From a virus (taxonomy: Duplodnaviria > Heunggongvirae > Uroviricota > Caudoviricetes), in the IMG/VR virus record IMGVR_UViG_2778261572_000010: a DNA stretch of 15,374 bases. One strand, 5' to 3'. The position numbers and the translations under genes are program-made. Positions 11,610 through 12,245 of the stretch are shown here, one piece after another. Within the stretch, counting starts at the first letter, position 1; every line of letters starts with the position of its first letter. The notes below the pieces were generated by a model. It worked only from the letters and a program-made list of their open reading frames with translations. It was not told where the DNA came from and did no database searches.

Positions 11610-12245
11610 TTAACGAGCAAGTATATTCAAAGAGTTCAATAACTGAGCATCTAATGTTTCTCTTACTGGAGTAGGAAGCCCATATGCAACTCTGTAATTT
11701 TTGATAGCAGTTCGTGTCGCAGGCCCCATACTTCCGTCTATATTGCCGTTATAAAACCCTTTATCCAGTAATGCGAACTGCACTCGCATGATCAAACGCT
11801 TACGCTTTTCAGTATCAGAAGCCAGCCCACTACTTGCACGAGTAGTTCCATTCATTCCAGCAGAGTTTGTGGTCGTAGAGGCATCGGTGTCATTTGAGCG
11901 AAGCGAACGAACAGATGAAGAAGACGATGGCGAATTTGTACCTGAATTGGATGAGCCTGATGAGCTTGGTGAACTGTATGTTTTAGGATAATAAGGAGTG
12001 CTTCCACCATAGTACCCACCACCAGACGAAGATCTATGAGAACTATGGCTTCGATGGGAGCTATGACTACGATGCCCTGCAATGTAGAAAGGTACTTCCG
12101 TGTTAAGTGGAGCTATAACTAAATCATGCTCATTAAGAGTAATACCGGGCAAATCACTTGCACCAGTGGAGGAATCACTTGCCCATACAGAATTATTGAG
12201 TGCTAAAAATCCCGGAAGCAGAGCAGCGAAATTAAATTTTTTCAT
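11610..12245 (-). CDS. hxsA: His-Xaa-Ser repeat protein HxsA: signal peptide, five His-Xaa-Ser repeats, Ser/Gly/Tyr-rich linker, C-terminal peptidoglycan-binding-like domain; 211 aa
   Basis: Start placed at the internal ATG at 12245 (MKKFNFAALLPGFLALNNSVWA, signal-peptide-like), which overlaps the upstream stop as ATGA. HRSHSSHRSHSSHRS is encoded at 12030-12074. The C-terminus FALLDKGFYNGNIDGSMGPATRTAIKNYRVAYGLP resembles a PG_binding_1 domain. Sits in a four-gene radical-SAM cassette. Confidence 0.85.
   Translation of the reverse strand: MKKFNFAALLPGFLALNNSVWASDSSTGASDLPGITLNEHDLVIAPLNTEVPFYIAGHRSHSSHRSHSSHRSSSGGGYYGGSTPYYPKTYSSPSSSGSSNSGTNSPSSSSSVRSLRSNDTDASTTTNSAGMNGTTRASSGLASDTEKRKRLIMRVQFALLDKGFYNGNIDGSMGPATRTAIKNYRVAYGLPTPVRETLDAQLLNSLNILAR

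What the first reader, a model, noticed from the sequence alone, without database searches (positions are those of the whole stretch)
12030..12074. HxsA architecture: signal peptide, five HxS repeats, low-complexity linker and a peptidoglycan-binding-like C-terminus
The repeat block HRSHSSHRSHSSHRS is encoded by an imperfect 18-nt DNA period at 12030-12074. It is followed by a Gly/Tyr and Ser-rich linker (GGGYYGGSTPYYP, SSPSSSGSSNSGTNSPSSSSS) and a C-terminal domain resembling PG_binding_1. An exported, cell-wall-tethered substrate for two cytoplasmic radical SAM enzymes is an unusual topology: modification must precede export, and a His-rich modified segment at the cell wall suggests metal binding or envelope remodelling.
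Basis: partly seen in the sequence, partly recalled or inferred. Interest (0 to 1): 0.5.

Follow-up and report, generated by a model that had tools for sequence, protein, structure and literature searches.

The report
Known E. coli HXS antiphage effector HxsA
This is an intact copy of the already described E. coli HXS anti-phage operon, and the flagged gene is its exported, cell-wall-anchored effector HxsA, so the architecture was read correctly but it is not new.

Summary
Codons at 12074..12030 (minus strand) encode HRSHSSHRSHSSHRS inside a 211-aa ORF (12245..11610). The ORF has a Sec-type signal peptide, an acidic pro-segment, five HxS repeats, a disordered Gly/Tyr/Ser-rich linker and a C-terminal PG_binding_1 domain. 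It scores as HxsA (TIGR03979, 168 bits against a 121.65 cut-off). It is the last gene of an intact hxsD-hxsB-hxsC-hxsA operon.

The window is E. coli chromosome. It is about 100% identical to several RefSeq genomes that already annotate these genes as hxsA-D.

Li et al. 2026 (Nat Commun 17:3910) characterised the function. HxsB, HxsC and HxsD mature HxsA by N-terminal processing and a +8 Da change in the last SHRSS repeat. Mature HxsA sits in the periplasm, needs its peptidoglycan-binding domain, and blocks phage DNA entry.

The metal-binding or envelope-remodelling guess is not supported. The "18-nt DNA period" is weak: the repeat is at protein level with scattered synonymous codons.

Small additions from this work:
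- The signal peptide and an APLN motif are unusually conserved.
- A DUF6119 gene often follows hxsA in Enterobacterales.

Verdict: already known, low interest.

The parts
11610..12245 (-). hxsA, the 211-aa His-Xaa-Ser repeat protein (effector or substrate of the HXS system). Its ATG overlaps the hxsC stop codon (ATGA).
   Evidence: It scores 168.1 bits on TIGR03979 against a cut-off of 121.65. RefSeq annotates the same CDS as hxsA, WP_001389383.1, with one residue different (I35 against M35). Homologues all start at MKK, which supports the 12245 start over the upstream ATG at 12323.
12180..12245 (-). Signal peptide, residues 1-22 (MKKFNFAALLPGFLALNNSVWA, with cleavage predicted after VWA).
   Evidence: The n-, h- and c-regions and the -3/-1 rule are met, and there is no Cys and no RR. 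It is as conserved as the folded domain: 42% identity in distant homologues, with the motif LAALLPGFLxLN. In PMC13128918, residues 1-22 were predicted as the signal peptide, and replacing them abolished periplasmic localisation and defence.
12105..12179 (-). Acidic, variable pro-segment, residues 23-47 (net charge about -4.4), ending in the conserved APL|N motif.
   Evidence: Charge and pI are. The segment is only 16% identical in distant homologues, but APLN at residues 45-48 is conserved at 70-80%. In the paper, residues 23-47 were required for defence and absent from the processed form, whose coverage began at residue 48.
12030..12074 (-). Five tandem His-Xaa-Ser repeats, residues 58-72 (HRSHSSHRSHSSHRS). 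The last repeat, together with S69 before it and S73 after it, forms the SHRSS motif.
   Evidence: The sequence is read directly. It is 91% identical in distant homologues, and five repeats is the modal number (33 of 54). In the paper the +8 Da modification maps to SHRSS, and changing any single repeat to AAA abolished defence.
11826..12029 (-). The conserved SSGGG tail (residues 73-77) followed by a Gly/Tyr/Ser/Thr/Pro/Asn-rich disordered linker (residues 78-140).
   Evidence: Residues 78-140 are 73% S, T, G, P or N. pLDDT is below 50 across residues 78-138. The linker is only 15% identical and varies in length among homologues. In the paper, residues 114-139 were dispensable.
11613..11825 (-). 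C-terminal PG_binding_1 domain, a three-helix bundle spanning residues about 141-211. The Pfam match covers residues 154-191, at 11673-11786.
   Evidence: PF01471 scores 24.9 bits against a gathering score of 23. PDB profile hits include SleB at 1.2e-6, an L,D-transpeptidase and SltB3. The AlphaFold model has pLDDT about 95 here, and its top Foldseek matches are PG-binding domains. In the paper, mutations in this domain abolished defence.
12242..13354 (-). hxsC, a radical SAM maturase of 370 aa from the RefSeq start. A longer ORF reaches 13390.
   Evidence: TIGR03977 scores 406 bits against a cut-off of 267.9. Cys residues at 101/105/108 and 342/345/351 carry the same numbering as the C105A/C108A and C342A/C345A mutants in the paper.
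13347..14735 (-). hxsB, a radical SAM/SPASM-type maturase of 462 aa.
   Evidence: TIGR03978 scores 582 bits against a cut-off of 370. Cys residues at 94/98/101 and 399/402/408 carry the same numbering as the C98A/C101A and C399A/C402A mutants in the paper.
14735..15007 (-). hxsD, a small accessory protein of 90 aa with the LYW and LLNDFSLRE motifs.
   Evidence: TIGR03976 scores 93.3 bits against a cut-off of 50. The AlphaFold model has pLDDT 91 and a beta-alpha-beta-beta-long-alpha order, with no significant PDB fold match and no PqqD-like hit. In the paper HxsD binds HxsC.
9984..11591 (-). DUF6119/TIGR04141 gene, 18 nt downstream of hxsA on the same strand. It is a frequent neighbour, not a defining part of the system.
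   Evidence: PF19614 scores 424.7 bits and TIGR04141 scores 521 bits. No terminator-like site lies between it and hxsA. It follows hxsA in 8 of 80 species loci, all of them Enterobacterales.

Best explanation
**What it is.** The gene at 12245..11610 (minus strand) is hxsA. It is the effector of the four-gene HXS anti-phage system hxsD-hxsB-hxsC-hxsA, here in an intact copy on an integrative island of an E. coli chromosome.

**Most likely mechanism.**
1. [quoted passage not shown]
2. Before export, the cytoplasmic radical SAM enzymes HxsB and HxsC, the latter in complex with HxsD, install a covalent +8 Da change in the last repeat (SHRSS). They are also needed for N-terminal processing near the conserved APL|N site.
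3. The matured basic protein (residues 48-211, calculated pI about 10) reaches the periplasm.
4. Its PG_binding_1 domain tethers it to the sacculus through a long disordered linker.
5. The modified HxS array then hinders the passage of phage DNA across the envelope.

**Shown by sequence here:** identity, intactness, architecture and conservation.

**Shown experimentally elsewhere, on a related E. coli allele:**
- the defence phenotype;
- periplasmic localisation;
- the need for all four genes;
- the need for the signal peptide;
- the need for the PG-binding domain;
- the need for each repeat;
- the +8 Da mass shift.

**Inferred only:**
- that maturation is cytoplasmic;
- the chemistry of the +8 Da change;
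- that DNA binding is the actual blocking step.
For: - All four proteins exceed their curated NCBIfam equivalog cut-offs.
- The DNA is about 100% identical to E. coli chromosomes in which RefSeq annotates hxsA-D.
- Catalytic and auxiliary Cys positions of HxsB and HxsC coincide with the residues mutated in PMC13128918.
- The HxsA N-terminal half (residues 29-99) is invariant among four E. coli alleles that differ by up to about 23% in DNA.
- The conservation profile fits the published mutational map: the repeats plus SSGGG are about 90% conserved, while the pro-segment and linker are about 15%.
- The PG-binding fold is confirmed.
- The D-B-C-A gene order is dominant: 48 of 84 loci read exactly D-B-C-A, 8 of them with DUF6119 after hxsA. 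Another 25 read B-C-A with no HxsD detected.
- Experimental function is reported in PMC13128918.
Against: - The experimentally tested allele (strain MEM, 214-aa HxsA) could not be retrieved. It is not identical to this 211-aa allele.
- The reported precursor at m/z 714.5 (5+) does not fit residues 48-78 of the window protein plus 8 Da, which would give m/z 678.7.
- No in vitro reconstitution exists, and the chemistry of the modification is unknown.
- DNA binding by a protein with pI about 10 is weak evidence for the blocking mechanism.
- The T7 escape mutations lie in the ejectosome proteins gp15 and gp16, not in DNA.
- The signal peptide was judged by rules, not by a trained predictor.
Confidence: 0.9

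Rival explanations
1. Same system and same maturation, but a different blocking step. Wall-anchored mature HxsA interferes with assembly or function of the phage trans-envelope ejection channel, or with local peptidoglycan opening, rather than binding the incoming DNA electrostatically.
For: - T7 escape mutations map to the ejectosome proteins gp15 and gp16.
- The authors themselves list channel obstruction as an alternative.
- At neutral pH the HxS segment carries only about +2, and most of the positive charge is in the PG-binding domain. This makes in vitro DNA binding unspecific evidence.
- The PG-binding domain is of the type found in lytic transglycosylases and endolysins.
Against: - Pull-downs detected no interaction between periplasmic HxsA and gp15 or gp16.
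- Protection against 110 of 113 diverse phages argues against recognition of any single phage protein.
Confidence: 0.3
2. One reading: the modified His-rich segment is a periplasmic or cell-wall metal-binding site, or an envelope-remodelling factor, with no primary role in phage defence.
For: - Five regularly spaced His residues could chelate divalent metals. This is general chemistry and was not tested.
- PG_binding_1 domains usually accompany cell-wall enzymes.
Against: - A closely related E. coli operon gives reductions in plating of 1000-fold or more for 110 of 113 phages, and this depends on each repeat.
- The operon sits on mobile islands and prophage cargo slots. It is patchy, present in 156 of 5426 E. 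coli genomes, and is often broken by IS elements or frameshifts. This is typical of defence genes, not of housekeeping metal or wall functions.
- HxsA has no catalytic domain.
Confidence: 0.04
3. The operon in this window is a decayed or silent copy. An IS3-family element ends about 145 nt upstream of hxsD, so the architecture is present but the system is not expressed.
For: - Window 15155-15374 matches IS3-family ends (IS629/IS1203-like) in thousands of E. coli records.
- Other strains carry IS-disrupted or frameshifted hxs genes.
Against: - All four ORFs are full length and score far above the family cut-offs.
- A promoter-like site (9 of 12 matches) remains at 15106..15078, between the IS end and hxsD.
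Confidence: 0.1

Closest known systems
HXS anti-phage system of E. coli strain MEM (Li et al., Nat Commun 2026;17:3910; PMC13128918)
   Same: - The four genes are the same and in the same order.
- The Cys numbering in HxsB and HxsC is the same.
- HxsA has a 22-residue signal peptide, five HxS repeats ending in SHRSS, a dispensable low-complexity linker and a PG-binding domain.
   Different: - The tested HxsA is reported as 214 aa, against 211 aa here, and HxsD numbering is offset by one.
- The tested sequence could not be fetched, so allele identity is unknown.
- The paper does not mention the DUF6119 gene that follows hxsA here.
NCBIfam/TIGRFAMs His-Xaa-Ser system families TIGR03976-TIGR03979 (Haft and Basu, J Bacteriol 2011; cited as ref. 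22 of PMC13128918, paper itself not readable here)
   Same: All four window proteins pass the equivalog cut-offs.
   Different: Nothing differs. The window is a plain member. The variant substrates HxsA2 (NF038296) and HxsA3 (NF038309) match only across the repeat and fall far below their cut-offs.
Anaerobic sulfatase maturase (anSME) and its Sec-exported sulfatase substrates
   Same: - A SPASM-type radical SAM enzyme modifies a Ser or Cys in a short motif of a protein that carries a signal peptide, before export.
- HxsB shows distant similarity to TIGR03942 (51.7 bits).
   Different: - HxsB is far below the anSME cut-off of 349.
- The substrate motif differs (HxS repeats, not C/S-x-P-x-R).
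- Two maturases plus HxsD are needed.
- The mass change is +8 Da, not -2 Da.
- The substrate is not an enzyme.
Phage-encoded superinfection exclusion proteins that block DNA entry (T4 Imm and Sp)
   Same: They act at the envelope, at the DNA-entry step (discussed).
   Different: - They are phage-encoded and narrow in spectrum.
- They are not post-translationally matured by radical SAM enzymes.
- There is no sequence relation.
PG_binding_1 (PF01471) domains of SleB, SltB3, L,D-transpeptidases and phage endolysins
   Same: The three-helix fold is the same, with the conserved Q...L...G.Y.G..DG..G..T motif.
   Different: In those proteins the domain targets a catalytic module to peptidoglycan. In HxsA it is attached only to a disordered, modified repeat segment.

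Membership tests
HxsA (TIGR03979) / HXS defence system | The whole-protein score is above the curated equivalog cut-off. | tested here: met
   The score is 168.1 bits against a cut-off of 121.65, covering residues 4-209.
HxsA (TIGR03979) / HXS defence system | A tandem His-Xaa-Ser array ends in SHRSS followed by S-G-G. | tested here: met
   HRSHSSHRSHSSHRS-SSGGG occupies residues 58-77. H58, R59, S69, H70 and S72 are invariant in 54 homologues.
HxsA (TIGR03979) / HXS defence system | An N-terminal secretion signal is present. | tested here: met
   The n-, h- and c-regions and the VWA|S site are present, with no lipobox and no twin-arginine. This is rule-based only, because SignalP was not available. 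It is consistent with the paper's prediction and fractionation.
HxsA (TIGR03979) / HXS defence system | A C-terminal peptidoglycan-binding domain is present. | tested here: met
   PF01471 scores 24.9 bits against a gathering score of 23. PDB profile hits reach down to 1.2e-6. The confident AlphaFold domain superposes on the SleB PG-binding domain at 1.6 A.
HxsA (TIGR03979) / HXS defence system | The operon context is hxsD-hxsB-hxsC-hxsA, with two radical SAM enzymes each carrying CxxxCxxC and a C-terminal Cys cluster. | tested here: met
   TIGR03976, TIGR03978 and TIGR03977 are all above their cut-offs. The Cys motifs are present. The genes overlap or abut. The same order is seen across species loci.
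HxsA (TIGR03979) / HXS defence system | HxsBCD-dependent processing, the +8 Da modification, periplasmic localisation and protection against phage. | not testable with these tools
   These are known only from experiments on a related allele (PMC13128918).
RiPP-type leader recognition (PqqD-like RRE) | The accessory protein HxsD has the winged-helix PqqD/RRE fold. | tested here: not met
   The HxsD model (pLDDT 91) has a beta-alpha-beta-beta-long-alpha order. Its Foldseek PDB matches are generic alpha/beta sandwiches and KH domains at E of 0.015 or more, and none is PqqD-like. No Pfam hit was found.
Anaerobic sulfatase maturase family (TIGR03942) | HxsB scores above the family cut-off. | tested here: not met
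   The score is 51.7 bits against a cut-off of 349.45. The relation is a distant superfamily one only.

The most novel reading that the evidence does not exclude
The N-terminal 'signal peptide' of HxsA is more than a generic Sec signal. Its sequence (LAALLPGFLxLN) and the APLN motif at the processing site are conserved across distant Proteobacteria as strongly as the folded PG-binding domain. The acidic pro-segment between them is free to vary.

This would fit a dual-use leader that the HxsB/HxsC-HxsD machinery reads for recognition, holding or hand-over to export. It could also explain the published observation that processing is not ordinary signal-peptidase cleavage.

In addition, the DUF6119 gene that follows hxsA in about a third of enterobacterial loci could be an unrecognised accessory or companion defence gene.
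Probability: 0.2. Interest if true: 0.35.

Novelty: already known. Interest (0 to 1): 0.1.

Why it matters
HXS is, according to its describers, the first bacterial system shown to act at the phage DNA-entry step, and the first defence effector matured by radical SAM enzymes. Recognising it in a genome therefore predicts broad phage resistance.

For this window nothing new follows.

The open questions remain open, and sequence analysis cannot settle them:
- the chemistry of the +8 Da change;
- how a signal-peptide-bearing substrate is held for cytoplasmic modification;
- what actually blocks DNA passage.

The conservation pattern of the leader and the recurrent DUF6119 neighbour are modest leads for people working on the system.

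Tried and rejected
1. **DNA tandem repeat.** Tandem Repeats Finder at minimum score 30 found nothing in 11600-12300. The 18-nt period is 14/18 for the one full pair. I rejected it as a DNA-level feature.

2. **Matching the window allele to the tested one.**
   - Strain MEM (CP012378) is not in the E. coli collection, and no supplementary text is held.
   - The published m/z 714.5 (5+) fits no sub-peptide of the window protein around the repeats, with or without +8 Da. The window's 48-78 peptide plus 8 Da would be m/z 678.7.
   - This stays unresolved. It may reflect allele differences or reporting in the paper.

3. **HxsD as a PqqD-like recognition element.** The model is confident but gives no such fold match. 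Not supported.

4. **DUF6119 as a core fifth gene.** It is found directly after hxsA in only 8 of 80 species loci, all Enterobacterales, and is absent from a P2-type prophage copy in E. coli. I rejected it as a core component. It has no PADLOC hit, no PDB relative, only a PHROG of unknown function, and no literature.

5. **PADLOC.** It has no HXS models. Only weak viperin-type radical SAM hits appear for HxsB and HxsC.

6. **tRNA at the island border.** None was found in the window.

7. **Haft and Basu 2011.** The paper could not be read. It is cited only through reference 22 of PMC13128918.

Full report
**1. What is at the coordinates**

On the minus strand, 12074..12030 reads CAT CGT AGT CAT AGC TCC CAT CGA AGC CAT AGT TCT CAT AGA TCT, which is HRSHSSHRSHSSHRS. 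It forms residues 58-72 of a 211-residue ORF running from the ATG at 12245 to the stop at 11610.

The regions of the protein are as follows.

| Residues | Feature |
|---|---|
| 1-22 | MKKFNFAALLPGFLALNNSVWA. Two Lys, a 13-residue hydrophobic core, V at -3 and A at -1 |
| 23-47 | Acidic segment, net charge about -4.4 |
| 48-57 | NTEVPFYIAG |
| 58-72 | Five HxS repeats |
| 73-77 | SSGGG |
| 78-140 | Stretch that is 73% Ser, Thr, Gly, Pro or Asn |
| 141-211 | Basic C-terminal domain |

The protein has no Cys, so it has no lipobox, and it has no twin-arginine.

The only weak element is the "18-nt DNA period". The two full units agree at 14 of 18 bases, and the half unit agrees at 5 of 9. Tandem Repeats Finder finds nothing even at score 30. 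The differences are synonymous codon choices, so the repeat is maintained at the protein level.

**2. Identity**

- The protein scores 168.1 bits on NCBIfam TIGR03979 (HxsA, cut-off 121.65).
- The three genes upstream on the same strand score as HxsC (406 against 267.9), HxsB (582 against 370) and HxsD (93 against 50).
- Pfam finds PG_binding_1 at residues 154-191, just above the gathering score (24.9 against 23).
- The hxsC stop and the hxsA start overlap (ATGA), and hxsD/hxsB and hxsB/hxsC also abut or overlap. This is one operon.

The DNA from 9900 to about 15154 is about 100% identical to several complete E. coli chromosomes. In these, RefSeq already annotates hxsD, hxsB, hxsC and hxsA, with the same hxsA start. 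The window's HxsA differs from WP_001389383.1 by one residue, I35 for M35.

**3. The C-terminal domain and the rest of the fold**

With an alignment of 54 homologues, AlphaFold gives a confident model only for about residues 141-211 (pLDDT about 95, helices 136-161, 175-188 and 200-205). Everything before that is predicted disordered.

The ten best Foldseek matches in the PDB are all PG_binding_1 domains:
- SleB N-terminal domain 6tci (rmsd 1.6 A over 56 columns, TM 0.68 on the target);
- SltB3;
- CtpB;
- a phage endolysin.

The E-values are modest (0.02 and above) because the domain is tiny. The sequence profile independently hits SleB (1.2e-6), an L,D-transpeptidase and SltB3.

**4. Conservation**

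Among 54 full-length homologues from Enterobacterales to alpha- and epsilon-proteobacteria, five repeats is the modal number (33 of 54, range 2-9).

In the 48 sequences below 60% overall identity, identity to the window protein by region is as follows.

| Region | Identity to the window protein |
|---|---|
| HxS block | 91% |
| SSGGG | 88% |
| Residues 48-57 | 49% |
| PG-binding domain | 45% |
| Signal peptide | 42% |
| Pro-segment | 16% |
| Linker | 15% |

Two points stand out.
- The signal peptide (LAALLPGFLxLN) is as conserved as the folded domain, which is unusual for Sec signals.
- An APLN motif at residues 45-48 is 70-80% conserved inside an otherwise free segment.

**5. What it does**

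The function has been published. Li et al. (Nat Commun 2026;17:3910; PMC13128918) cloned an hxsDBCA operon from E. coli strain MEM. Their findings were as follows.

- The operon protected against 110 of 113 coliphages, without abortive infection and without loss of adsorption.
- T7 DNA entry was delayed from about 10 min to 30-50 min.
- Escape mutations mapped to the ejectosome proteins gp15 and gp16.
[quoted passage not shown] Both were required.
- Processing needed HxsB, HxsC and HxsD and their Fe-S Cys residues.
- A +8 Da change mapped to the SHRSS motif of the last repeat.
- Replacing any single repeat with AAA abolished defence.
- Residues 23-47 were required, and residues 114-139 were not.
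- HxsC bound HxsD.
- Periplasmic HxsA bound DNA in vitro.

The window's proteins fit this map well. The Cys residues mutated in the paper (HxsB 98, 101, 399, 402; HxsC 105, 108, 342, 345) are at exactly those positions here. The four Leu chymotryptic sites in residues 23-47 and the 48-78 peptide boundaries (L47|N48 ... Y78) are also present. The conservation profile mirrors what was essential or dispensable in the paper.

**6. Mechanism and its uncertain steps**

I take the published model as the best explanation:
1. maturation by HxsB and HxsC-HxsD before export;
2. export;
3. tethering to peptidoglycan through the C-terminal domain;
4. the modified repeat array, on a long flexible linker, hindering DNA passage.

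From the sequence I can add one point. The removed pro-segment is acidic (-4.4), and the processed protein is strongly basic (pI about 10.1, +9 at pH 7). Processing would therefore unmask charge.

The same calculation shows that the repeat segment itself carries only about +2 at pH 7, and that most of the positive charge lies in the PG-binding domain. In vitro DNA binding is thus weak evidence for the blocking step. Obstruction of the ejection channel remains a serious alternative, and the authors also list it. It is consistent with the gp15/gp16 escape mutants.

The chemistry of the +8 Da change ("+C -4H") and the compartment where maturation happens are inferred, not shown.

**7.

The architecture, the name and the "modify before export" topology are correct. 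The suggestion of metal binding or envelope remodelling has no support. The distribution argues against it:
- hxsA is present in only 156 of 5426 complete E. coli genomes, in at least three allele groups, and always chromosomal;
- it sits on integrase-bearing islands or in a P2-type prophage cargo slot;
- it is often broken by IS elements or frameshifts.

These are hallmarks of defence cargo.

From general knowledge, pre-export radical SAM maturation of periplasmic proteins is also not unprecedented (anaerobic sulfatase maturase; QhpD with QhpC).

**8. Attempts to go beyond the paper**

(a) *HxsD as a PqqD-like recognition element.* The model is confident (pLDDT 91; beta-alpha-beta-beta-long helix). 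It matches only generic alpha/beta sandwiches and KH domains at E of 0.015 or more. Not supported.

(b) *DUF6119/TIGR04141 gene.*
- It lies 18 nt downstream of hxsA with no terminator-like site between them.
- It also follows two other E. coli alleles that are only 77-81% identical in DNA.
- In 80 species-representative loci it follows hxsA in only 8, all Enterobacterales, so it is a frequent companion, not a core gene.
- It has no PADLOC hit, no PDB relative and no literature hit, and only a PHROG of unknown function.

(c) *Allele identity with the tested strain.* This could not be established. The strain's record is not in the collection. The paper gives 214 residues against 211 here. The reported m/z 714.5 (5+) fits no repeat-containing peptide of the window protein.

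**9. Verdict**

This is a real, non-random and correctly described feature. It is an ordinary, intact member of a family modelled since 2011, whose function was published in 2026, in a genome region that RefSeq already annotates with these names.

Novelty: already known. Interest: low. The residual leads are the conserved leader and APLN motif, and the DUF6119 neighbour.

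Noticed in passing
window 9984-11591 (-): A DUF6119/TIGR04141 gene (535 aa) lies 18 nt downstream of hxsA, with no terminator-like site between them. It follows hxsA in three divergent E. coli alleles and in 8 of 80 species loci (all Enterobacterales), but not elsewhere. It is not mentioned in the HXS paper. It has no PADLOC hit, no PDB relative and no literature hit, and matches only a PHROG of unknown function.
   Followed up: partly
window 12180-12245 and 12102-12113 (-): HxsA residues 1-22 and 45-48: The signal peptide (LAALLPGFLxLN) is as conserved across distant homologues as the folded PG-binding domain. 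A conserved APLN motif sits at the reported processing point, while the acidic segment between them varies freely. This hints that the leader is read by the maturation or export machinery.
   Followed up: partly
window 15155-15374: The end of an IS3-family element (IS629/IS1203-like) matches thousands of places in E. coli genomes. It is inserted about 145 nt upstream of the hxsD start, leaving only a short promoter region.
   Followed up: partly
L085 (E. coli 100117), L003 (13KWH46), L004 (O55:H7 CB9615), hit H26 (WWCOL-315): hxs operons in other E. coli strains are often inactivated. Strain 100117 has IS3 in hxsC and IS66 in hxsB. Strain 13KWH46 has IS3 in hxsC. CB9615 has a frameshifted hxsC. 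WWCOL-315 has IS3 in hxsA. The window copy is intact.
   Followed up: no
window 3117-4316, 4640-5869, 6152-9487, 9615-9827 (+): This is the mobile-island backbone next to the operon. It has two tandem tyrosine integrases, a large serine recombinase followed by two ParB/RepB-like genes, and an integrase fragment. No tRNA gene is present in the window.
   Followed up: partly
window 1308-2135, 2176-2547, 2456-2821 (+): An SPFH/Band 7 protein is followed by small DUF5406 and DUF4222 ORFs upstream of the integrases. I did not examine them further.
   Followed up: no
L004 6001-6615 (E. coli O55:H7 CB9615 hxsA): This allele lacks seven residues (ASDSSTG) exactly at the predicted signal-peptidase site. 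The deletion lies between two ASD repeats, so the VWA|SD junction is recreated.
   Followed up: no
PMC13128918, Fig. 4c text, against window HxsA residues 48-78: The published precursor at m/z 714.5 (5+, about 3567.5 Da) for 'HxsA(48-78)+8' does not match the same peptide of this allele (3380.55 + 8 Da, m/z 678.7). The peptide sequence is invariant in the four E. coli alleles compared.
   Followed up: partly
L051-L084 (mostly alphaproteobacterial loci): In 25 distant loci my HxsD profile found no hxsD upstream of hxsB. In five loci a second, divergently oriented ORF matching my HxsA profile lies upstream of hxsB. This could reflect a divergent HxsD or a variant system layout.
   Followed up: no
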